Shown here one piece after another: positions 1-7,379 of a stretch of 7,379 nt of DNA (the first letter of the stretch is position 1; every line of letters begins with the position of its first letter). The DNA is taken from IMG/VR virus record IMGVR_UViG_3300028969_000089. One strand, written 5' to 3'. The position numbers and the translations under genes are program-made. The notes beneath the pieces are model-generated. The model worked only from the letters and a program-made list of their open reading frames with translations, made no database searches and was not told the DNA's origin. The stretch is from a virus. Taxonomy: Duplodnaviria > Heunggongvirae > Uroviricota > Caudoviricetes.

Positions 1-82
1 AAATGTGGCCTGGCTGCACTCTGAAGTCACCGCATGGATGGCCGGGCGCATTGCCGGACGCAAACGGGGGTACGACGCATGA
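1..82 (+). CDS. 3' end of Vis/AlpA-family small DNA-binding regulator (5' truncated by window edge)
   Basis: Aligns base-for-base with 6744..6825, the 3' end of the complete 88-aa ORF 6559..6825. Reading frame ends at stop TGA 80..82, encoding ...[26 protein letters not shown]. Confidence 0.6.
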
Positions 83-117
83 TGATGCCCGCTCTGCAAA
101 AACTCCCTTTTTCTGGC

Positions 118-147
118 TTGCCTTTTTCCGGCATTTGCGGATATAGT
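118..147 (+). promoter_or_regulatory. Sigma70-like promoter, candidate early promoter of the left operon (P4 PLE equivalent)
   Basis: TTGCCT (118..123), 18-nt spacer, TATAGT (142..147), directly downstream of the vis stop. Identical hexamers at 6861..6866 and 6885..6890 in copy B. Confidence 0.4.
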
Positions 148-210
148 TTTTCCGCTGTCGCAAAATCGGCAGCCGGGCGTGAGAACCCGAGCAATTCACA
201 GGCGACATAT

Positions 211-232
211 GACGCGCCACGCGTCTTTTTTT
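211..232 (+). terminator. Intrinsic terminator-like hairpin in the leader
   Basis: GACGCG (211..216), loop CCA, CGCGTC (220..225), then seven T (226..232). Copy B keeps a GACGC/GCGTC stem plus T7 at 6954..6975. Confidence 0.45.
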
Positions 233-390
233 GTGTCGCAATCAATGCCACAGAGCGCCAGATTATGGTGTGGTGTGTGGTCAGTCGTGCAGATGGCATT
301 CCGTGCATCCTGCCCGCGTCCGCTCATTATGCCGCAGAGTCAATGGTAGCTCAGGCGGGGCAGCCTCCGGGCTGGCCGGTATCCTGTGAA

Positions 391-452
391 GCCGGTATTC
401 TCACCCCCGTCTGGGCTATCGCCATCGAGCGTGAGAACTCCGGCGATAGCGT
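391..452 (+). ncRNA. Candidate CI-like immunity RNA core (62-nt block identical in both repeat copies)
   Basis: The 62 nt at 391..452 are identical to 7125..7186 while the 10 nt immediately upstream and the sequence downstream differ. Contains a 9-bp stem GCTATCGCC (415..423) / GGCGATAGC (442..450) with an 18-nt loop exposing GTGAGAAC (431..438), and an upstream TTCTCAC (398..404) complementary to GTGAGAA. Confidence 0.35.
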
Positions 453-480
453 TATTTGCTATTCACAGGAGGCTGCCATC

Positions 481-678
481 ATGGCTACAACCCTTACCCC
501 CTCACACCCTGAATTTGTCTTTGTGTTTGCGGCTGTCCGTCGCGCAGACCGTCATCCCCGTATCTGTATGCTTCGCACCGTCGCCGGTGATGAACGCAGT
601 GCCCGCCGTTCCCTTGTCCGTGACTATGTGCTCTCCCTTGCTGCCCGTCTGCCGGTGGTGGAGGTGTCCCGTGCGTAA
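481..678 (+). CDS. Small conserved protein (65 aa) downstream of the CI-like block; function unknown (Kil/Eps position of a P4-type left operon)
   Basis: ATG 481 preceded by AGGAGG (467..472) with an 8-nt spacer. Copy B (7215..7379) differs at only three positions across the 55 aligned codons, all synonymous third-base changes (ACA/ACG, CCC/CCT, TGT/TGC). Confidence 0.55.
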
Positions 679-958
679 TAAAAAAGCCCCTCAGACCGTC
701 TCAGCGCGTCATGACGCCCGTGAACACCTCAGCATTGAGGCTTATCATAAGCTCAACCGTGCCAGCGCCGTATCCCAGTTTGTTGGGGGTGATTTGATTC
801 ACCGTGAACTCTCCGGCCTGCATCAGCTCTACATTCCGCATATTTTCAGCTACCTGAATGAAGATATTGATTTTGTGCTGAATGAGCTGAAAGCCAAAGG
901 CCTGTGCCGCGATTTTCTCGCCCAGCAGAAAGACCGGGGAGACAGGACGCATGTTTGA
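671..958 (+). CDS. Hypothetical small protein (95 aa), probably translationally coupled to the preceding ORF
   Basis: GTG 671 overlaps the upstream stop (GTGCGTAA) and is preceded by GGAGG (660..664). No in-frame ATG. The long 190-aa frame 386..958 would have to run through the conserved RNA block, so the short form is preferred. Confidence 0.4.
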
Positions 959-1011
959 TTTTCCCCAGCTCCACCACTTGCTCTTCCGGATACGTCCGGA
1001 GAAATCCTAAA

Positions 1012-1044
1012 AGCCCGCATGGCACAAGCTCTGCGGGCTTTTTT
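1012..1044 (+). terminator. Rho-independent terminator closing the upstream module
   Basis: Perfect 8-bp stem AGCCCGCA (1012..1019) / TGCGGGCT (1032..1039) with a 12-nt loop, followed by a T-run to 1044; A-run precedes the stem. Confidence 0.55.
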
Positions 1045-1088
1045 GTGTCTACCATTGTCCGAGGATATCCAGCTAAATCCAGTGATTA

Positions 1089-1140
1089 TTGGTATACGTT
1101 TAGGTATACGGTAGGATGTATACCTAAACGCGTATACCAA
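1089..1140. promoter_or_regulatory. Imperfect 21-bp inverted repeat with four GGTATAC/GTATACC heptamers upstream of int; candidate integrase or regulator binding region
   Basis: Left arm TTGGTATACGTTTAGGTATAC (1089..1109) and right arm GTATACCTAAACGCGTATACCAA (1118..1140) are reverse complements apart from one inserted base, separated by 8 bp, ending 20 bp before the int start. Confidence 0.4.
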
Positions 1141-1160
1141 TTCATGAAGGAGCGGCCACA

Positions 1161-2372
1161 GTGGCAAGAACGACACGCCCCCTGACCAACACAGAAGTTC
1201 TGCGCGCTAAAGCGTTAGAAAAGGATCTAACGTTACATGATGGCGATGGCCTTTTTCTGCTCGTTAAAACGAACGGTAAGAAGTTGTGGCGTTTCCGTTA
1301 TCAACGTCCAGCAACAAAACAGCGGACAATGATGGGGCTTGGTGCTTTCCCCGCCCTTTCACTTGCTGATGCTCGAAGGTTAAGAGCGGATTACCTTGCT
1401 TTGTTGGCTAATGGTATAGACCCACAAGTTCAAGCTGAATTTATCGAAGAACAACAACAGATAGCTCTAGACAGTATTTTTTCGACTGTTGCGACCAACT
1501 GGTTCCAGATAAAAAGCAAAAGCGTTACCCCTGATTACGCTAAAGATATATGGCGCTCACTGGAAAAAGACGTATTCCCTGCCATCGGGGAGATTCCTGT
1601 CCAGCAAATAAAAGCCCGAACACTAGTTGAAGCCCTTGAGCCAATCAAAGCTCGTGGAGCACTCGAGACAGTGCGCCGACTTGTACAGCGCATTAACGAG
1701 ATAATGATTTATGCCGTAAACACTGGTCTGATTGATGCCAATCCAGCATCAGGTGTTGGGATGGCCTTTGAAAAGCCCAGAAAACAAAACATGCCGACGC
1801 TGAGGCCAGAAGAATTACCAAAGCTGATGCGTTCTTTGTTCATGTCAAATCTGTCTGTTCCGACTCGCTGTCTCATTGAATGGCAGCTTCTGACTCTAGT
1901 GCGTCCTGCTGAAGCTTCCGGTGCTCGATGGGCAGAGATCGATCTCGATGCAAAGCTCTGGATGATTCCAGCCGAACGGATGAAGGCCAAACGAGAGCAC
2001 ATAGTTCCTTTATCCACGCAGGCATTAGAAATTCTAGAAGTGATGCAACCTATTAGCGCACATCGTGAGCATGTTTTCCCAAGCAGAAATGACCCTAAAC
2101 AACCAATGAATAGCCAGACTGCGAATGCCGCGCTTAAGCGCATTGGTTATGGTGGGAAGCTTGTTGCTCATGGATTACGTTCTATAGCAAGTACAGCACT
2201 AAATGAAGCTGGTTTTAATCCGGACGTAATTGAAGCGGCACTTGCTCACAGTGATAAAAATGAAGTTCGAAGAGCATACAATCGTTCAACTTACCTTGAA
2301 CAACGTATAGACTTGATGAATTGGTGGGGTGAATTTGTGCACAACCGCCACCGCCTCATGCAAGCGATTTAA
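1161..2372 (+). CDS. int: P4-type tyrosine integrase (site-specific recombinase)
   Basis: 403-aa ORF starting GTG 1161 with AAGGAG at 1147..1152. N-terminal arm-binding-type sequence (LHDGDGLFLLVKTNGKKLWRFRYQ) and C-terminal catalytic signature HGLRSIAS ... RAYNRSTY typical of P4-family integrases. Confidence 0.9.
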   Translation: MARTTRPLTNTEVLRAKALEKDLTLHDGDGLFLLVKTNGKKLWRFRYQRPATKQRTMMGLGAFPALSLADARRLRADYLALLANGIDPQVQAEFIEEQQQIALDSIFSTVATNWFQIKSKSVTPDYAKDIWRSLEKDVFPAIGEIPVQQIKARTLVEALEPIKARGALETVRRLVQRINEIMIYAVNTGLIDANPASGVGMAFEKPRKQNMPTLRPEELPKLMRSLFMSNLSVPTRCLIEWQLLTLVRPAEASGARWAEIDLDAKLWMIPAERMKAKREHIVPLSTQALEILEVMQPISAHREHVFPSRNDPKQPMNSQTANAALKRIGYGGKLVAHGLRSIASTALNEAGFNPDVIEAALAHSDKNEVRRAYNRSTYLEQRIDLMNWWGEFVHNRHRLMQAI

Positions 2373-2399
2373 TAAGATTGCACAGCAAAGGAGTCTTAA

Positions 2400-3758
2400 A
2401 TGCCAAATAACTACCATCAATACATCGAAGACGTTAGTGATGATATAAAGACATGTCTTGAAGGAATGGGATGCCAACCCATACTTTTTGTTGGATCGGG
2501 ATTAACCAAGAGATATCTTTCTGGCCCAAACTGGGAAGAACTTCTTCAGCAACTTGCTAATGAATGTCCTAACATCGATAAAAGATTTGCCTATTATAAA
2601 CAGAAATACCCCGAGTTGATTGATATCGGCAGTGTATTTTCTGATTCTTATAACGAGTGGGCATGGGGTGATGGAGAGAAAGAATTTCCAGCAGAGTTAT
2701 TTGATGCAGGCAATGAGCCAAGTATTTATTTTAAATACAAAGTATCTAGTATTTTCAACTCATTGTTACAAGAAAAAGAAATCGTAAACAACGGTGAAAT
2801 TGAACTTCTGAGAAAGATTCACCCTCATTCAATCATCACAACAAATTACGACAAATTACTTGAATCGATATATCCTGAGTTTACCCCCATTATAGGCCAA
2901 AAAATCCTTTACGCTAATCACGGTAGCATTGGTGAAATACTTAAAATACATGGTTGCTGCTCCACTCCTGAAAGCATAATAATAAACCGCGATGACTACG
3001 ATGACTTCATAAAGAAGAAGAAATATTTAAGCGCAAAACTGCTTACTTTCTTTGCTGAACACCCTCTTCTATTTATAGGTTACAGCGCAGAAGACTCGAA
3101 CATAAAAAACATACTATCTGATATTGATGAACTACTTTCAGAAAATGGAGATGTCATTCCAAATATATACATTTTAGAATGGACGAGCAAACAAAATGAA
3201 AGTGAATACCCACGCCGTGAACGGCTGATTCAAGTATCTGCAAACAAAAGCATTAGAATAAAAAGTATAGTAGCAAATGACTTCTCTTGGGTATTTTCAG
3301 CGTTTGGCGCGAACAGAGCACTTGATAACATAAATCCCAAATTATTGAGGGCACTTTTAGCTCGCACTTACGATCTCGTCAGAACTGATATACCTCGCAA
3401 TCCTGTCCAAGTTGATTACCGAGTTTTATCAAGCATTAGCGAGTCAGAAGGTGAATTAGCGAAATTATATGGTATCGCCACATCGTCAGATGGTATGGCA
3501 TTTAATGCCAGTTATCCTTTTACTTTAACCACGCTAGGGCAATCACTTGGTTTCAAAGGCTGGCATGATGCGAACAAACTATTAGAAGTAGTTAAAAACA
3601 TCACGAACGTAGACATCAAGACATTCGATAACAAATACCACTATGCAATAATGAACGGTGATGAGATTCAGTCCCATAGATATTCAAACTATCTTCGAGA
3701 ACTCCTCGAAAAGGTTAGGGATGGAGAGGAGTTTGAGTTAGGAATAAAGGCTCCATAA
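2400..3758 (+). CDS. SIR2-like (SIR2_2-type) putative NAD+-hydrolase, candidate standalone antiphage defence protein with an uncharacterised C-terminal domain
   Basis: 452-aa ORF with AAGGAG at 2388..2393. Motifs read directly: ILFVGSGLTKRYLSGPNWEELL (Gly-rich NAD pocket), ITTNYD (Asn149, codon 2844..2846), KIHG (His184, codon 2949..2951), LFIGYSAED. Gene is markedly AT-rich against GC-rich flanks and starts 25 bp after the int stop. Confidence 0.8.
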   Translation: MPNNYHQYIEDVSDDIKTCLEGMGCQPILFVGSGLTKRYLSGPNWEELLQQLANECPNIDKRFAYYKQKYPELIDIGSVFSDSYNEWAWGDGEKEFPAELFDAGNEPSIYFKYKVSSIFNSLLQEKEIVNNGEIELLRKIHPHSIITTNYDKLLESIYPEFTPIIGQKILYANHGSIGEILKIHGCCSTPESIIINRDDYDDFIKKKKYLSAKLLTFFAEHPLLFIGYSAEDSNIKNILSDIDELLSENGDVIPNIYILEWTSKQNESEYPRRERLIQVSANKSIRIKSIVANDFSWVFSAFGANRALDNINPKLLRALLARTYDLVRTDIPRNPVQVDYRVLSSISESEGELAKLYGIATSSDGMAFNASYPFTLTTLGQSLGFKGWHDANKLLEVVKNITNVDIKTFDNKYHYAIMNGDEIQSHRYSNYLRELLEKVRDGEEFELGIKAP

Positions 3759-3787
3759 TTATTCATATAGCCTTACTACTTTTTATG

Positions 3788-3809
3788 GCCGCTTTAATAG
3801 CGGCTTTTT
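3788..3809 (+). terminator. Rho-independent terminator after the SIR2-like gene
   Basis: Stem GCCGCT (3788..3793) / AGCGGC (3799..3804), loop TTAAT, then TTTTT (3805..3809), 30 bp past the stop codon. Confidence 0.55.
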
Positions 3810-3945
3810 CACAGCATTATTCATGCTTCTAGCACGATATGATGAACCGCAATAATCATAGCTAACAGGATTAATTTAAAGCATTACTCCTCGACTGAAG
3901 CGTGCTGTCATGCGAAAAAAATTTAAACTACCACGTTAGCGCGCA

Positions 3946-3964
3946 GTGCTTTCCCCGCCTCGCC
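3946..3964. other. Candidate cos site (P2/P4-type 19-nt cohesive end)
   Basis: GTGCTTTCCCCGCCTCGCC is the exact reverse complement of GGCGAGGCGGGGAAAGCAC, which I recall as the P2/P4 cohesive-end sequence. It lies between the cargo gene and psu, as cos does in P4. Confidence 0.6.
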
Positions 3965-4066
3965 CGCCCGCTTTGCGGGGCGGTTTTAATGCAGTTGCAC
4001 TGACACGCTCAGACCGCGCCGGGAATGGTGCGGTCTGCAGAAAATGAGGCAGGAAAACGCATGCAA

Positions 4067-4098
4067 AGCCATGCACCTTATCGATGCATGGCTTTTTT
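4067..4098 (+). terminator. Hairpin plus T-tract in the cos-to-psu spacer (terminator-like)
   Basis: 9-bp stem AGCCATGCA (4067..4075) / TGCATGGCT (4085..4093), 9-nt loop, T-run to 4098. It is oriented to stop plus-strand read-through into antisense psu. Confidence 0.35.
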
Positions 4099-4128
4099 CA
4101 GTAAAAACGGGCGGATTTTCGGGGAATT

Positions 4129-4701
4129 TTACACAGACTGACGTGATGCCAGTTGCGCACTTTTACGCGAAAAAATCATGTTCTGCGCAGGGGTGAATTT
4201 TTCACGGCTGTCATCCACCGAAGCCGCGTCAGGCCTGAATCCGATGGCCGTTAAAATGTCGCTATCCTGTGCGGAATAATTAATTTTTTCCCCCTTCGCA
4301 AGCCAGGACAGAAGGGCTTCACGCAGGGCATCTGTGGCACGCTGTATGGCACAGTTTCGGGCAATGACCGTCAGCTCACTGTAGCCCATCAGCTCCGGTG
4401 CCAGTGCCGCCGCCAGTGCTGTGCCGTGCTGCTGCATAAAATCATTCAGCCGGTCGCGGATGCTGATGTGCTGAACGGCTTCATGCGAACGAATATAACG
4501 ACCGGCGGCCTGATTCACCTGCCATTTTCTGACTTCGATAATATTGCGTAATTCGTCCAAGCGACTGACGTTTCTGCCTTCTCCTGACAGAAGCCGCAGA
4601 TATTCCTGTTCGGCCGCAGCCAGCTCATTTTTGCGTTGCAGCCATGCTGCTTTGTTATTCTGACAGGTGTCAAAGGCCTGCTGTAAGGCTGTGCTTTCCA
4701 T
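4129..4701 (-). CDS. psu: Polarity suppression protein Psu (P4 capsid decoration / Rho antagonist)
   Basis: 190-aa ORF whose sequence (MESTALQQAFDTCQNNKAAWLQRKNELAAAEQEY...) matches my recollection of P4 Psu in length and sequence. Last gene of the sid-delta-psu late operon. Confidence 0.85.
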   Translation of the reverse strand: MESTALQQAFDTCQNNKAAWLQRKNELAAAEQEYLRLLSGEGRNVSRLDELRNIIEVRKWQVNQAAGRYIRSHEAVQHISIRDRLNDFMQQHGTALAAALAPELMGYSELTVIARNCAIQRATDALREALLSWLAKGEKINYSAQDSDILTAIGFRPDAASVDDSREKFTPAQNMIFSRKSAQLASRQSV

Positions 4702-4774
4702 CGTTATCTCTTTCTCATCATGCTGAAGAATAAAAATACGGTGTGCGGCGACGGCCGGTGTTAACCGGCAGCCC

Positions 4775-5275
4775 TCATTCCAGACGCAGCGAATATGATT
4801 GTGTTTTTAACCGTACTGGCGGCAGTTCCTGTTTTTCATGCAGGCGTTCTGCCAGTTCGTCCGGTGTGACCGGGCGGACAATGAAGCGGTTGATGGTCTG
4901 AAGCGTTTTAAACACCAGACCACATCCCGGATCCGTGCACACATAAAAACGCTCGGTGACTTCCTGAGACAGACGCCGCGATGTTCTTGACAGTGCAAGG
5001 CCTTTACATCTCCGACAACAATATCCGGTAACAAGCATTCTTTTCGGGCGTTTCATACTGCCGGAGGCTGACGTCAGTGAATCGCGGTATCTCTGTTTGC
5101 CTGAAATGTATTCCATTCCTGAATCTTTACAGTCAGAGAAAAAGCTTTCACTCGCTTCAAATGTCGCAGAGCAATAAATATTCCGGCACTGTGCAATCAT
5201 TATCTTGGTGCCATCGTCCATGAAATGTGCGCGACGGGTGTGAGCAACATGTCCACACGACGGGCAGTAAATCAT
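4775..5275 (-). CDS. delta: Delta, Ogr/Delta-family zinc-finger late transcription activator
   Basis: 166 aa, the length of P4 Delta. Two Ogr-like halves each with Cys pairs (CPSC...CRNIYC and CCRRC...CTDPGC). Start overlaps the sid stop in an ATGA junction at 5272..5275. Confidence 0.85.
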   Translation of the reverse strand: MIYCPSCGHVAHTRRAHFMDDGTKIMIAQCRNIYCSATFEASESFFSDCKDSGMEYISGKQRYRDSLTSASGSMKRPKRMLVTGYCCRRCKGLALSRTSRRLSQEVTERFYVCTDPGCGLVFKTLQTINRFIVRPVTPDELAERLHEKQELPPVRLKTQSYSLRLE

Positions 5276-6006
5276 GACAGCAGTCCTCTGGCCTTAAGCT
5301 CTGCTCCCTGCTGGTCTATTTTGTCCTGCCACACCTTGCGCTGTGCCGGTGTGCCTGCCACCTCATAATCCATGTGCGGGAGTGTTGCCGCTGACAGTCC
5401 GGTCAGCCGGAGAACCGGCTCGCCGGTGAGGCTGATTTGCATCTGTTTAATTTTCTGTTCCAGCGATGATTTCACCTGCTGCATGACAGCCTTTTCCGGT
5501 GCGACGTAGCCCTGATGGCCGGTGGTGTTGGCGAGCGGATTTTCCTGTACCAGGATACTCAGATGCATTGCCCGGACAAGCGCCTCACAGGTTTCATTTA
5601 GGGCGTGTTCCAGCTCATGCTCTGCATACAGACTCAGAAGGTGATGATGTGCCTTCCGGTAGGCGGTGGCCGTGCTGTCACACGCCCCTTTCAGGCGTTC
5701 ACGTTCGAAATTCAGCACCACGGCCAGATTGTCATATTCCTGTACCAGCTCCCGGCGTGCCACGCGCTCAATGTGGCGCTGTTTCAGCTCGTCGCTCAGG
5801 ACACCACCGGCTGCACGAAAGGCCGTGCGCCAGTCGTCAGCGTCGTTTCCGTCGGCCTGCGCCAGCGCATTTTTTTCCTGCTCTGCCCGTTCAATGGCCG
5901 TGATGGTCTCATCCATCAGGCGGGCGTTCTCAAGATGAGCGGCTCTGGCCTTTTCCAGTTGTGCCAGCGCGGGTTGCAGATATTCAGGGATGGTGTTGTC
6001 AGACAT
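5272..6006 (-). CDS. sid: Sid, external scaffold / capsid size determination protein
   Basis: The ORF track extends to 6072, but the ATG at 6004..6006 (MSDNTIPEYL...) has a GGAG 6 nt upstream and gives 244 aa, matching P4 Sid as I recall it. The upstream ATG would overlap the predicted promoter dyads. Confidence 0.8.
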   Translation of the reverse strand: MSDNTIPEYLQPALAQLEKARAAHLENARLMDETITAIERAEQEKNALAQADGNDADDWRTAFRAAGGVLSDELKQRHIERVARRELVQEYDNLAVVLNFERERLKGACDSTATAYRKAHHHLLSLYAEHELEHALNETCEALVRAMHLSILVQENPLANTTGHQGYVAPEKAVMQQVKSSLEQKIKQMQISLTGEPVLRLTGLSAATLPHMDYEVAGTPAQRKVWQDKIDQQGAELKARGLLS

Positions 6007-6040
6007 TTTCCGGCTCCTCGTCACTTCAGGTTGAGAAAAT

Positions 6041-6096
6041 TGTGACGTACACCGGACAACAACACGACGCATTGCAGATGTGCCAGCCCTGACACA
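6041..6096 (-). promoter_or_regulatory. Candidate Psid late promoter with two Ogr/Delta-type TGT-N12-ACA dyads
   Basis: Dyads TGT-N12-ACA at 6041..6058 and 6079..6096, centres 38 bp apart. If the distal dyad is at -55 the start site falls near 6032, about 26 nt upstream of the sid ATG, and the proximal dyad near -17. Confidence 0.5.
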
Positions 6097-6175
6097 GGAG
6101 ACTCATCCTCAGACCGGCAAGCCAGGAAAAGGTCGCAGGAAAAACCGGCTTACTGTTTGTTTTTTTATATTTTAC

Positions 6176-6279
6176 TGTTCACCTCTGTTCACCATAAGAA
6201 AAAAGATAAGTAATACAGTAAGTTAAATGGTGAACAATCGCAGTAATGACTGTTCACCGTCTGTTCACCACTGTTCACC
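6176..6279. repeat. Iteron array: six TGTTCACC octamers (ori/crr-like replication element)
   Basis: Octamers at 6176, 6186, 6251, 6262, 6272 (direct) and 6229..6236 (inverted). Adjacent direct copies are spaced 10 to 11 bp, with an AT-rich stretch between the clusters. TGTTCACC is the repeat I recall as the P4 alpha-protein binding site in ori and crr. Confidence 0.55.
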
Positions 6280-6382
6280 CGCTCATGGACTTTTTGTGCT
6301 GTTTACTACTGTTTGTTTTTATTAATTCGCCGGGAATGAATAAGAAGAAACGATTTGTATTTCACTATAAAAATTACGAATT

Positions 6383-6412
6383 GCTTTAAGTGGCTTTAAA
6401 TGACTTTAAGTG
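6383..6412. repeat. Three tandem 10-bp repeats upstream of vis
   Basis: GCTTTAAGTG (6383..6392), GCTTTAAATG (6393..6402), ACTTTAAGTG (6403..6412): head-to-tail and helically phased. Confidence 0.4.
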
Positions 6413-6438
6413 GGAATGAACAAAAAACACACAGTCAT

Positions 6439-6456
6439 TGTAAGGCGGCCGGAACA
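6439..6456 (+). promoter_or_regulatory. Candidate activator dyad for the rightward late promoter upstream of vis (PLL equivalent)
   Basis: TGT (6439..6441), 12 nt, ACA (6454..6456). Placing it at -55 puts the start site near 6502, about 57 nt upstream of the vis ATG. No convincing -10 hexamer was identified. Confidence 0.25.
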
Positions 6457-6558
6457 AATCCCCCCTGTTGCGTCTGCCAAAAAGATTCACAAAATAAAGC
6501 GCTACCCGAAGCCGGACGGACTTATCCGGTGCTGTATGGACATTAACGAGGTAGCCCG

Positions 6559-6825
6559 ATGCAAGCTGTTTTTTCTTCCCCGTCTCCCTCCCCTGTGACG
6601 CCACTGATGCCGCTGCCGGACATCACGCAGGAGCGTTTTTTACGTCTGCCGGAAGTGATGCACCTGTGCGGCCTGTCACGTTCGACCATCTATGAACTCA
6701 TCCGTAAGGGGGAATTTCCGCCGCAGGTGAGTCTTGGCGGTAAAAATGTGGCCTGGCTGCACTCTGAAGTCACCGCATGGATGGCCGGGCGCATTGCCGG
6801 ACGCAAACGGGGGTACGACGCATGA
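6559..6825 (+). CDS. vis: Vis/AlpA-family small DNA-binding regulator / excisionase-like protein
   Basis: 88-aa ORF with an AlpA-type helix-turn-helix core ([43 protein letters not shown]). Position between the late promoter region and the early promoter matches P4 vis as I recall it. Confidence 0.75.
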
Positions 6826-6860
6826 TGATGCCTGTTCTGCAAAAACTCCCTTTTTCTGGC

Positions 6861-6890
6861 TTGCCTTTTTCCGGCATTTGCGGATATAGT
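6861..6890 (+). promoter_or_regulatory. Sigma70-like promoter, copy B of the candidate early promoter
   Basis: TTGCCT (6861..6866), 18-nt spacer, TATAGT (6885..6890); identical to copy A. Confidence 0.4.
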
Positions 6891-6953
6891 TTTTCCGTTG
6901 CCGCAAAATCGGCAGCCGGGCGTGAGAACCCGAGTATGTTATCGGCGACATAT

Positions 6954-6975
6954 GACGCGCCATGCGTCTTTTTTT
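6954..6975 (+). terminator. Leader hairpin plus T7, copy B
   Basis: GACGC (6954..6958) / GCGTC (6964..6968) with a 5-nt loop, then seven T (6969..6975). Confidence 0.4.
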
Positions 6976-7124
6976 GTGTCGCAATCAACGCCACAGAGCA
7001 CCAGATTATGGTGTGGCGTGTGGTTTGCCGTGCAGGTATGATCCTGTTCGCAATCGCATGTTATGCCTCTGAGTCAATGGTAGCTCAGGCGGGGCAGCCT
7101 CCGGGCTGGCCGGTTTCCGATAAC

Positions 7125-7186
7125 GCCGGTATTCTCACCCCCGTCTGGGCTATCGCCATCGAGCGTGAGAACTCCGGCGATAGCGT
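7125..7186 (+). ncRNA. Candidate CI-like immunity RNA core, copy B
   Basis: 62 nt identical to 391..452, flanked by diverged sequence. Confidence 0.35.
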
Positions 7187-7214
7187 CATTTACGCTGTTA
7201 TCGGAGGTTGCCTT

Positions 7215-7379
7215 ATGGCTACGACCCTTACCCCTTCACACCCTGAATTTGTCTTTGTGTTTGCGGCTGTCCGTCGCGCAGACCGTCATCCCCGTATCTG
7301 CATGCTTCGCACCGTCGCCGGTGATGAACGCAGTGCCCGCCGTTCCCTTGTCCGTGACTATGTGCTCTCCCTTGCTGCC
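7215..7379 (+). CDS. Small conserved protein, copy B (3' truncated by window end)
   Basis: ATG 7215 preceded by GGAGG. The 55 codons visible differ from 481..645 only at three synonymous sites. Confidence 0.5.

What the first reader, a model, noticed from the sequence alone, without database searches (positions are those of the whole stretch)
1..1160. Two diverged copies of the vis / early-promoter / leader module flank the int-to-sid unit; the upstream copy ends without a replication gene
1..645 and 6744..7379 are about 90% identical direct repeats, so they are not a recent duplication or an assembly wrap-around. In the upstream copy the small ORFs are followed by a strong terminator (1012..1044) and then, within about 120 bp, the integrase of the next unit. 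A P4-type left operon would normally continue into the alpha primase-helicase gene. This suggests either tandem P4-like satellites with a truncated upstream member, or an old recombination between related elements. No tRNA-like or att-core sequence was recognisable at the junction.
Basis: partly seen in the sequence, partly recalled or inferred. Interest (0 to 1): 0.6.

Follow-up and report, generated by a model that had tools for sequence, protein, structure and literature searches.

The report
Truncated P4-like satellite abutting another at ssrA
The window holds the control region of one P4-like phage satellite, cut off just before its replication genes and joined, exactly at the tmRNA-gene attachment core, to a second related satellite with a different immunity type. 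This is a tidy but fairly ordinary case of mobile elements piling up and decaying at an integration hotspot.

Summary
The repeat is real. Positions 1-645 and 6744-7379 are 91.5% identical, and homology to complete elements continues to 969; only the window end cuts the repeat. Each copy is a full P4-type immunity module: promoter, seqA/isrK leader, CI/C4 antisense RNA and seqC. The differences sit in the RNA loop and its two targets, which covary, so A and B are heteroimmune elements and not a wrap-around.

Copy A continues through a 65-aa ORF and an intact eps. It breaks 19 nt into the orf151-like gene (951-969), upstream of where cnr and alpha follow in all relatives.

Positions 965-976 (CCAGCTCCACCA) are the last 12 nt of ssrA (tmRNA). 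Positions 977-1160, including the "strong terminator", are what follows ssrA wherever this int-SIR2 satellite sits in E. coli and Salmonella.

The break lies in CCAGC, immediately 5' of T357, where CP4-57-type excision is reported to cross over. The A side (CCCCAGCCCGG) is a conserved pseudo-core.

Best reading: an integrase-type crossover between that pseudo-site and the att core, most likely deleting orf151-alpha from the upstream member of a tandem array. Nested insertion of B into A cannot be excluded without flanking sequence. This is a known kind, and the junction itself was found nowhere else.

The parts
1..82 (+). 3' end of vis/alpA, copy A
   Evidence: Identical for 89 nt to the 3' end of the complete vis at 6559-6825, which matches PF05930 Phage_AlpA at 7e-21.
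118..147 (+). PLE-like early promoter of copy A (TTGCCT-18-TATAGT)
   Evidence: Consensus scan. The identical 30-mer recurs at 6861-6890 in copy B. A promoter role is inferred from position relative to the P4 immunity RNAs.
141..231 (+). Leader of copy A: seqA-type target (TTCACAGG, 195-202) and isrK-like RNA ending in a hairpin plus T-run (211-231)
   Evidence: Rfam c4-a1b1 at 141-193 (45.1 bits, just under the gathering score of 46.7) and isrK at 154-231 (66.8 bits, gathering score 50). Terminator-like site. Target 8-mer positions.
339..426 (+). CI/C4-type antisense immunity RNA of copy A; specificity loop CCUGUGAA at 383-390
   Evidence: Rfam RF01695 C4, 74.9 bits (gathering score 45), full length. 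The loop is complementary to 195-202 and 462-469.
462..678 (+). seqC-type target (TTCACAGGA, overlapping the GGAGG ribosome-binding site) and the 65-aa ORF at 481-678. The annotated 199-aa 'Icd-like/Ash' ORF at 79-678 spans the RNA genes.
   Evidence: PF10554 on 79-678; phrog_6928/1743. RefSeq annotates the 65-aa version separately in L040.
671..958 (+). eps ('Derepression') gene of copy A, intact
   Evidence: PF25738, 7.7e-51, full length. The exact protein is on record in 57,061 blocks of the collection, and all ten places shown are complete P4-like elements.
951..969 (+). First 19 nt of the orf151-like gene of A (ATGTTTGATTTTCCCCAGC): the last A-derived sequence. The pseudo-core is CCCCAGC(CCGG in intact elements). 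The residual ORF at 951-1010 encodes 19 aa.
   Evidence: All 22 complete loci read ATGTTTGATTTTCCCCAGCCCGGTGAGATTTACC, as do 76 of 80 IMG/VR loci. The window reads ...CCCCAGCTCCACCACTTGCTC.
965..976 (+). att core: the 3'-terminal 12 nt of ssrA/tmRNA (CCAGCTCCACCA). 965-969 is shared with A; T970 corresponds to T357 of ssrA.
   Evidence: Identical to the end of the annotated or ARAGORN-called tmRNA gene in L001, L002, L014 and K-12. For T357, PMC10107115.
977..1160 (+). Left (int-proximal) att arm of element B: ssrA-terminator hairpin at 1009-1042 and four GGTATACG arm-type repeats at 1091-1138 (two direct, two inverted)
   Evidence: Window 965-1400 is 100% identical to the sequence directly 3' of ssrA in NZ_AP045833. 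Hairpin. Repeats. The same repeat occurs in the right arm of L001. Int binding is inferred.
1161..2372 (+). Integrase of element B (P4/CP4-57 type, ssrA-specific)
   Evidence: PF13356, PF22022 and PF00589. 63% identical to K-12 IntA over 393 aa. The exact protein lies next to ssrA or an ssrA fragment in all 10 places shown.
2400..3758 (+). SIR2-domain defence gene in the satellite hotspot (context, not part of the junction)
   Evidence: PF13289 SIR2_2. PADLOC PDC-S25, 2.1e-84.
4129..6006 (-). psu (4129-4701), delta (4775-5275) and sid (5272-6006) of element B
   Evidence: PF07455 and PF04606. sid by RefSeq annotation of the homologous gene. The 244-aa start was computed.
6176..6279 (.). Six TGTTCACC octamers (ori1-type alpha-binding iterons) between sid and vis of B
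   Evidence: 6 exact matches against 0.22 expected; 0/200 shuffles reach this. The same octamers cluster after alpha in L001. The iteron role rests on my own knowledge of P4 ori1/crr.
6559..6825 (+). vis/alpA of element B, complete
   Evidence: PF05930, 7.3e-21.
6861..7379 (+). Immunity module of copy B: promoter 6861-6890; seqA target GTTATCGG 6938-6945; isrK 6897-6974; C4/CI RNA 7073-7160 with loop CCGAUAAC 7117-7124; seqC target 7197-7204; ORF from 7215, cut by the window end

Best explanation
**What it is (shown).**
- Window 1-969 is the right-hand part of a P4-like satellite 'A': vis 3' end, PLE promoter, seqA/isrK leader, CI/C4 RNA, seqC, a 65-aa ORF, eps, and the first 19 nt of orf151.
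- At 965-969 (CCAGC) it is fused to the extreme 3' end of the tmRNA gene, followed by the left att arm and integrase of a second satellite 'B': int, SIR2, psu, delta, sid, vis, immunity module.
- A and B carry different immunity specificities. The antisense-RNA loop and both of its targets differ coordinately.
- A therefore lacks orf151, cnr, alpha, crr and its right att arm at the place where every relative has them.

**How it arose (inferred).** An ssrA-specific tyrosine integrase (CP4-57 IntA type) recombined a bona fide att site (...GCCAGC|TCCACCA plus the B left arm) with a pseudo-core at the start of A's orf151 (TTTTCCCCAGC|CCGG). The most likely setting is in cis within a tandem array, ssrA-A-[hybrid att]-B. 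That would excise about 3.8 kb carrying A's replication genes.

**Consequences (inferred).**
- A is left as a non-replicating remnant that is still immune and still encodes eps.
- A's left operon now runs into the hairpin that B supplies as the ssrA terminator, which insulates int of B.
- B keeps a usable core and its own arm sites.
For: **Break point mapped to the base.**
- Window 1-969 is colinear with complete elements, and 965-7379 is colinear with ssrA-integrated elements. The two overlap only in CCAGC.
- The ssrA side of the break is exactly the segment where attL (CTCCCGCCAGC|TCCACCA) and attR (ACTCCGCCAGC|CCACCAA, CCAATCATG and similar) of this element family stop being identical.
- Published work reports that CP4-57 excision removes T357, the base immediately 3' of CCAGC (PMC10107115).
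- B's Int is 63% identical to IntA and sits at the same position in ssrA.

**The A-side site.** It is invariant in 22/22 and 76/80 relatives. It shares 7 bp (CCAGCCC) with the T-less attB. There are only two such 7-mers in direct orientation in a 10.5-kb element.

**Tandem arrays at ssrA exist.**
- Arrays with B-type satellites as the downstream member occur in complete genomes, behind P2-like prophages.
- Arrays with a P4-like upstream member also occur.
- Tandem P4-likes and remnants next to complete ones are described in PMC8628076.

**Heteroimmunity.**
- Rfam C4 hits above the gathering score in both copies.
- Loop and targets covary in A and B.
- The same covariation holds across four major loop types (plus a 3-member variant of B's) in 94 of about 96 elements.

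**The event looks recent.** The retained A genes are intact: an exact Eps allele and 99.5-99.8% DNA identity to intact elements.
Against: - No flanking sequence is available. The existence of ssrA and an A-integrase upstream is not shown, and neither is the absence of A's orf151-alpha downstream of B.
- The junction was found nowhere else: 0 of 5426 complete E. coli genomes, IMG/VR, and one 20-mer scan each of the genome and metagenome collections, which gave chance hits only.
- No intact hybrid att (P4-like right arm plus core plus B left arm) was found in E. coli complete genomes either.
- Outside the 7-bp identity, the pseudo-site is a poor match to the core. It is not among the best 22-mer matches in the element.
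- A RecA-independent deletion at 5-nt microhomology would give the same sequence.
Confidence: 0.5

Rival explanations
1. Nested insertion. Element B integrated by its own Int into the pseudo-attB at the start of orf151 inside an otherwise complete satellite A, which could be at any att site. A's orf151-cnr-alpha would then lie beyond B, separated from its promoters. A would be interrupted, not truncated.
For: - It produces exactly the observed left junction: A-left + CCAGC + TCCACCA + B left arm.
- The pseudo-site shares 7 bp with the T-less attB and is conserved in nearly all P4-likes.
- A-type immunity modules occur in elements at other sites, for example selC, so A need not be at ssrA.
- Integrases that target other mobile elements are known (PMC10111431, listed).
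Against: - The primary ssrA site is normally available and reusable, as the tandem arrays show. Secondary-site use in trans should therefore be rare.
- The predicted reciprocal junction is absent from 5426 E. coli genomes and from IMG/VR.
- No other P4-like among more than 100 inspected is interrupted there.
Confidence: 0.2
2. The same tandem array and the same deletion, but produced by integrase-independent illegitimate recombination (replication slippage or microhomology-mediated deletion) between CCAGC in orf151 and CCAGC in the hybrid att.
For: The partners share only 5 contiguous nt (7 of 8), which is typical of microhomology deletions. The pseudo-site is not a good overall core match.
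Against: The att-side end point coincides to the base with the mapped crossover segment of this integrase family. For a random end point in a roughly 3.8-kb interval, this has a prior of well under 1% (my estimate).
Confidence: 0.12
3. Mixed-variant assembly. The eps|ssrA-tail junction is real, but the contig threads two alleles from different elements or strains. The true structure would be one element joined to itself: a 6.74-kb Int-generated circle, or a duplication by unequal sister exchange. The A-type module would belong to a normal satellite elsewhere.
For: - Both window ends lie inside the repeat.
- The 402-nt stretch 568-969 is 98.3-99.5% identical in all relatives and cannot link the junction to A or B.
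- The same int-SIR2 module occurs naturally with A-type immunity (L031, L002) and with B-type immunity (L014, L030).
- Two human-gut metagenome contigs (k127, k119) are A-type bubbles that start exactly k nt before position 90 and end exactly k nt after position 567.
Against: - The window ends (89 and 78 identical nt) do not fit one k-mer size.
- A circle without alpha and crr could not be maintained (my knowledge of P4 replication).
- The junction itself cannot be a k-mer chimera, because only 5 nt are shared.
Confidence: 0.13

Closest known systems
Tandem or decayed P4-like satellites adjacent to complete ones (Moura de Sousa & Rocha 2021, PMC8628076; SatelliteFinder paper PMC10085698)
   Same: Two P4-like gene sets lie side by side and one lacks core components. 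[quoted passage not shown]
   Different: Here the break is mapped to the base and coincides with the integrase crossover site. The two members are shown to be heteroimmune. In the passages of those papers I read, no junction is described at this resolution.
CP4-57 / IntA cryptic P4-like prophage at ssrA of E. coli K-12
   Same: It uses the same target gene and the same sublocation: the island supplies the last nucleotides and the terminator of ssrA. The integrase is 63% identical and an AlpA/Vis regulator is present. Excision removes T357, which places the crossover in GCCAGC.
   Different: CP4-57 is a decayed island without psu/delta/sid. Its left arm differs in sequence (AAATTCTCC... against CTTGCTC...).
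Tandem island arrays at tRNA/tmRNA genes (Islander/TIGER concept, PMC4383910; Williams 2003 'Traffic at the tmRNA gene', from memory, not readable here)
   Same: A displaced 3' fragment of the target gene sits between two integrative elements, with the downstream integrase next to it. Canonical examples with the same B-type satellite behind P2-like prophages appear.
   Different: Canonical junctions keep the upstream element's right arm plus the displaced fragment (45 nt). Here the right arm is missing and only 12 nt of ssrA remain, 7 of them unambiguous, fused to a coding sequence.
P4 / phiR73 RNA immunity (CI RNA with seqA and seqC; Rfam C4, c4-a1b1, isrK)
   Same: The layout is the same: promoter, seqA in an isrK-like leader with a terminator, processed antisense RNA, and seqC over the next ribosome-binding site. 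The mechanism is summarised in PMC4825925.
   Different: Nothing differs in kind. The window simply carries two specificity types (CCUGUGAA and CCGAUAAC) of the four major types seen among about 96 relatives.
Lambda-type secondary attachment sites and aberrant Int-mediated excision
   Same: A tyrosine integrase uses a site that matches only the overlap region (from my own knowledge).
   Different: Integrase involvement is not demonstrated here. It is inferred from the position of the break only.

Membership tests
P4-like satellite (seven core components: int, psu, delta, sid, alpA, eps/ash, alpha; PMC8628076): element B | int, psu, delta, sid and alpA present in the conserved order | tested here: met
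   Pfam hits for int, Psu, Ogr_Delta and Phage_AlpA. sid by RefSeq annotation of the homologue. Order is identical to 22 complete relatives.
P4-like satellite: element B | eps and the alpha primase-helicase present | not testable with these tools
   The window ends at 7379 inside B's immunity module. All relatives with the same int-SIR2 module have both genes.
P4-like satellite: element A | alpA and eps present | tested here: met
   vis 3' end at 1-82 and an intact eps at 671-958 (PF25738, 7.7e-51).
P4-like satellite: element A | alpha primase-helicase downstream of eps-orf151-cnr | tested here: not met
   orf151 is cut after 19 nt. The ssrA tail and B's integrase follow. Alpha could still lie beyond B (nested model), which is untestable here.
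P4-like satellite: element A | int, psu, delta and sid of A | not testable with these tools
   These would lie upstream of window position 1.
Canonical tandem array at a tRNA/tmRNA gene | A displaced 3' fragment of the target gene between the two elements, next to the downstream integrase | tested here: met
   CCAGCTCCACCA at 965-976; int starts at 1161.
Canonical tandem array at a tRNA/tmRNA gene | The upstream element ends with its own right att arm | tested here: not met
   The right arm seen in relatives (...GGTATACGATTAGGTATACG...TTATTCAAACTCCGCCAGC) is absent. orf151 coding sequence abuts the core.
Canonical tandem array at a tRNA/tmRNA gene | An intact target gene (ssrA) at the upstream end of the array | not testable with these tools
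   Outside the window. ARAGORN finds no tmRNA or tRNA in the window.
P4-type RNA immunity (CI/C4 antisense RNA with seqA and seqC) | Antisense RNA matching Rfam C4 above the gathering score | tested here: met
   74.9 and 76.2 bits against a gathering score of 45, full length, in both copies.
P4-type RNA immunity (CI/C4 antisense RNA with seqA and seqC) | The loop is complementary to one target upstream and one downstream, and covaries with them | tested here: met
   A: CCUGUGAA with TTCACAGG at 195-202 and 462-469. B: CCGAUAAC with GTTATCGG at 6938-6945 and 7197-7204. Four major loop types (plus a 3-member variant of B's) have matching targets in 94 of about 96 elements.
P4-type RNA immunity (CI/C4 antisense RNA with seqA and seqC) | RNA-dependent premature termination, and lack of cross-immunity between A and B | not testable with these tools
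   This needs expression or superinfection experiments.
CP4-57 IntA-type ssrA-specific integrase (B's Int) | Homology to IntA and insertion at the extreme 3' end of ssrA, with the island supplying TCCACCA and the terminator | tested here: met
   63% identity over 393 aa. Relatives with the identical Int sit at that position. The K-12 layout is comparable.

The most novel reading that the evidence does not exclude
The ssrA-type integrase of B may use the invariant start of orf151 (TTTTCCCCAGCCCGG) in OTHER P4-like satellites as a genuine secondary attachment site. One satellite would then insert into a heteroimmune rival and cut off its replication operon (orf151-cnr-alpha) from its promoters. 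That would be satellite-against-satellite interference, or a route to composite satellites.
Probability: 0.08. Interest if true: 0.6.

Novelty: new member of a known kind. Interest (0 to 1): 0.3.

Why it matters
**Practical value.**
- It corrects an annotation trap. A 12-nt tmRNA tail and a 'terminator' that belongs to the downstream element mark the true boundary between two satellites. Gene-content tools would merge or mis-delimit them.
- It shows how to type P4-like immunity from sequence: one loop plus its two targets.

**Biological value.** It gives a base-resolution example of how satellites at the ssrA hotspot lose their replication module, apparently through their own integrase acting on a conserved pseudo-site. 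It also shows that co-located satellites can be heteroimmune.

**Limits.** None of this changes current understanding of P4-like elements. It is a single, unreplicated junction.

Tried and rejected
**Wrap-around or recent duplication: rejected.** Identity is 91.5%, and the differences form coordinated immunity types.

**De Bruijn chimera at the junction: rejected.** The partners share only 5 nt.

**Homologous recombination between related elements as the source of the break: rejected** for the same reason.

**Searches for the source contig or a second instance all failed.**
- Junction query against 5426 E. coli genomes: 0 records cover at least 80%.
- 29-mer in IMG/VR: 0.
- 20-mer in genome contigs and metagenome contigs: 15 hits, none resembling the window.
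- Exact-protein look-ups: the A 'Icd-like' ORF gave only two sub-kb gut contigs. The eps and int look-ups showed only normal contexts in the places listed. Two ORFs spanning the junction are not on record.
- 80 IMG/VR eps loci: all have the normal eps-orf151 continuity.

**Reciprocal (nested-model) junction:** absent from E. coli genomes and IMG/VR.

**Intact hybrid attP-like junction:** absent from IMG/VR and E. coli. Partial hits turned out to be a P4-like followed by a CP4-57-type left arm.

**Ranking the pseudo-site as the best core match in an element: not supported.** It is only one of two CCAGCCC sites.

**Reading Williams 2003:** the paper is not held.

**tRNA/tmRNA scan and Rfam tmRNA models on the window:** nothing real.

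**Using the T/no-T state of attR to separate the nested and deletion models:** both models predict the same junction.
Full report
**1. The observation**

The window is a P4-like satellite region.
- On the + strand it encodes an integrase (1161-2372) and a SIR2-domain protein (2400-3758).
- On the - strand it encodes psu (4129-4701), delta (4775-5275) and sid (5272-6006).
- On the + strand again it encodes vis/alpA (6559-6825), followed by the early leader region up to the window end.

The stated repeat is real.
- 1-292/6744-7035 is 94% identical, 307-457/7041-7191 is 89%, and 481-645/7215-7379 is 98%.
- A global alignment gives 592/647 identical columns, 91.5%.
- The repeat stops at 645/7379 only because the window ends there. 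Window 1-969 aligns colinearly with complete elements at 94-99.5%.

**2. What the repeated module is**

Rfam finds the same three elements in both copies:
- the c4-a1b1 target (141-193 and 6884-6936);
- an isrK-like RNA (154-231 and 6897-6974);
- a full-length C4 antisense RNA (339-426 and 7073-7160; 74.9 and 76.2 bits against a gathering score of 45).

An identical 30-nt promoter-like sequence, TTGCCT-18-TATAGT, precedes each set at 118-147 and 6861-6890.

This is the P4 immunity layout. A processed CI RNA pairs with seqA upstream and seqC downstream and causes premature termination (summarised in PMC4825925).

The A/B differences are not spread evenly. They cluster at 192-201, 281-330, 381-392 and 453-478.
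- The loop of A's RNA (CCUGUGAA, 383-390) is complementary to TTCACAGG at 195-202 and 462-469.
- The loop of B's RNA (CCGAUAAC, 7117-7124) is complementary to GTTATCGG at 6938-6945 and 7197-7204.

In 94 of them the loop has a matching target on both sides.

A and B are therefore two different immunity types. This explains the roughly 8% divergence and rules out a wrap-around or a recent duplication.

**3. Where copy A ends**

After the RNA genes, A carries a 65-aa ORF (481-678) and an intact eps gene (671-958).
- The RefSeq-style 199-aa 'Icd-like/Ash' ORF at 79-678 runs across the RNA genes.
- eps matches PF25738 at 7.7e-51. Its protein is an exact match to an allele on record in 57,061 blocks of the collection, and all ten places shown are complete P4-like elements.

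In every complete relative the next gene starts ATGTTTGATTTTCCCCAGCCCGGTGAGATTTACC. It is followed by a DUF5375/cnr gene and a 777-aa primase-helicase.

The window instead reads ATGTTTGATTTTCCCCAGC|TCCACCACTTGCTCTTCCGG. So A is cut 19 nt into orf151.

**4. What it is joined to**

- CCAGCTCCACCA (965-976) is the 3' end of ssrA.
- Everything from 965 to 1400 is 100% identical to the sequence that ends ssrA and continues into the integrase in E. coli NZ_AP045833.
- The same arrangement holds in AP021894, CM149565 and Salmonella-type contigs.
- The 'strong terminator' at 1009-1042 (-22.2 kcal/mol, z = -4.9) is thus part of B's left arm. It is the counterpart of the ssrA terminator that CP4-57 supplies in K-12.
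- The left arm also carries four GGTATACG repeats at 1091-1138. These recur in the right arm of complete relatives, so they are presumably Int arm-type sites.
- ARAGORN and Rfam see no tmRNA because only 12 nt remain.

**5. The position of the break**

attL of relatives reads CTCCCGCCAGC|TCCACCA-CTTGCTC. Their attR reads AAACTCCGCCAGC| followed by CCACCAA, TCCACCAA, CCAATCATG or CCAAAATTC.

The segment common to both ends is GCCAGC. Published work states that CP4-57 excision deletes T357 of ssrA, the T directly after CCAGC (PMC10107115). The crossover therefore lies 5' of that T.

B's integrase is 63% identical to IntA. The window's junction lies in CCAGC with T970 on the B side, which is exactly at that crossover segment.

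On the A side, the intact sequence CCCCAGCCCGG shares 7 bp (CCAGCCC) with the T-less attB. This 7-mer occurs only twice in direct orientation in a 10.5-kb element. Beyond those 7 bp, the site is not a good core match.

**6. Interpretation**

I infer a site-specific, integrase-type crossover between a true att site and a pseudo-core in orf151. Three settings give the same left junction:
- (a) In cis, in a tandem array ssrA-A-hybrid att-B, deleting orf151-cnr-alpha-crr and the right arm of A.
- (b) In trans, with B's attP inserting into A (nested).
- (c) Unequal exchange or circle formation within one element, with the A/B difference introduced by a mixed assembly.

I favour (a) for three reasons.
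- ssrA arrays with this very satellite as the downstream member are present in complete genomes, behind P2-like prophages. Those arrays keep a 45-nt displaced ssrA fragment.
- P4-like elements also occur as upstream members.
- Tandem P4-likes and remnants next to complete elements are already described (PMC8628076).

Against (a), neither this junction nor an intact P4-like|B hybrid att was found in 5426 E. coli genomes.

Setting (b) predicts a reciprocal junction that was also not found.

Setting (c) is kept alive by three facts.
- The stretch 568-969 is 98.3-99.5% identical in all relatives.
- The same int-SIR2 module occurs with either immunity type.
- Two gut-metagenome contigs are exact A-type bubbles bounded at k nt from positions 90 and 567.

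The junction itself cannot be a k-mer artefact.

**7. Likely consequences (inferred)**

- A keeps its promoter, immunity RNA and eps, but not alpha or crr. It can still repress itself and possibly derepress a helper, but it cannot replicate.
- Read-through from A stops at B's ssrA-type terminator before int.
- B retains core and arm sites. Its excision would have to use the degenerate left core.

**8. Comparison and novelty**

The parts are all known kinds:
- P4-like satellites with a defence hotspot;
- P4/phiR73-type RNA immunity;
- CP4-57-type integration at the 3' end of ssrA;
- tandem and decayed satellites.

What is specific here is the base-level junction at the integrase crossover and the heteroimmune pairing. 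I rate it a new member of a known kind, of modest interest. The mechanism and the tandem-versus-nested question stay open until flanking sequence is available.

Noticed in passing
window 383-390 / 7117-7124 and their targets; loci L001-L121: P4-like elements fall into four major immunity types by the C4/CI loop, plus a few minor variants: UUCUUCGAG (30 elements), CCGAUAAC (26), CCGUUAGA (19) and CCUGUGAA (19). In 94 of about 96 elements the loop has perfectly complementary sites both upstream and downstream. The same int-SIR2 module is found with different types, so immunity modules are shuffled independently of the integrase.
   Followed up: partly
window 965-3758; L014, L030-L039: The int plus SIR2 (PADLOC PDC-S25, 2e-84) module is 99.7-100% identical between E. 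coli (smpB-ssrA context) and Salmonella-type contigs (fljA/fljB/hin context), both at ssrA. This points to very recent inter-genus spread.
   Followed up: partly
window 6176-6279: Six exact TGTTCACC octamers (0.22 expected) lie between sid and vis. The same octamers cluster downstream of alpha in L001 at 22030-22320. This looks like the P4 ori1/crr pair of alpha-binding iterons.
   Followed up: partly
window 79-678 (and 6822 onward): The commonly annotated 199-aa 'Icd-like/Ash' ORF overlaps the isrK-like and C4 RNA genes. Only its last 65 codons (481-678), preceded by GGAGG inside the seqC target, look like a translated gene. Some RefSeq records already split it (L040: a 198-bp Icd-like gene plus an 'ash' pseudogene).
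   Followed up: partly
attR of relatives: L001 22478-, L002 23678-, L030 20283-, L033 19970-, L036 20293-, L040 14179-, L106 8047-: The displaced ssrA tail at attR is polymorphic: TCCACCA, CCACCA, CCA or CA. Most copies lack T357, so excision would yield an ssrA without the G-U identity pair, as published for CP4-57. A few (L036, L106) keep the T.
   Followed up: partly
L123, L124, L125 (E. coli E47, HS4, SCU-172), locus positions about 1-6012: The same type of satellite sits directly behind a P2-like prophage (CI, integrase, Fil, gpA-like genes) that carries a 45-nt displaced ssrA fragment. Helper-like phage and satellite share one attachment gene in tandem.
   Followed up: partly
L003, L004 (human gut metagenomes ERZ918637, ERZ27239565): Two short contigs are 100% identical to window 1-694 and 1-686. 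They begin exactly k (127, 119) nt before position 90 and end k nt after position 567. They are assembly bubbles showing that an A-type and a B-like immunity variant co-occur in those samples.
   Followed up: yes
window 106-122, 6849-6865 versus 6116-6132: A 17-nt inverted repeat (16/17 complementary; CCTTTTTCTGGCTTGCC / GGCAAGCCAGGAAAAGG) links the -35 flank of the early promoter with a site just upstream of sid. It may be a shared operator.
   Followed up: no
window 912-1044: A weak Rfam match to IsrM (32.7 bits, far below the gathering score of 376; E = 2.4e-6) covers the junction and the terminator. It probably reflects homology of island left arms next to ssrA fragments and not an sRNA.
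   Followed up: no
L002 13538-14724; L034 13249-15551; L041 12065-14367; L040 14520-16321: IS elements (ISKpn26, IS21 family, IS100) repeatedly interrupt these satellites, in the SIR2 gene, in psu and in alpha. This is another route to alpha-less remnants.
   Followed up: no
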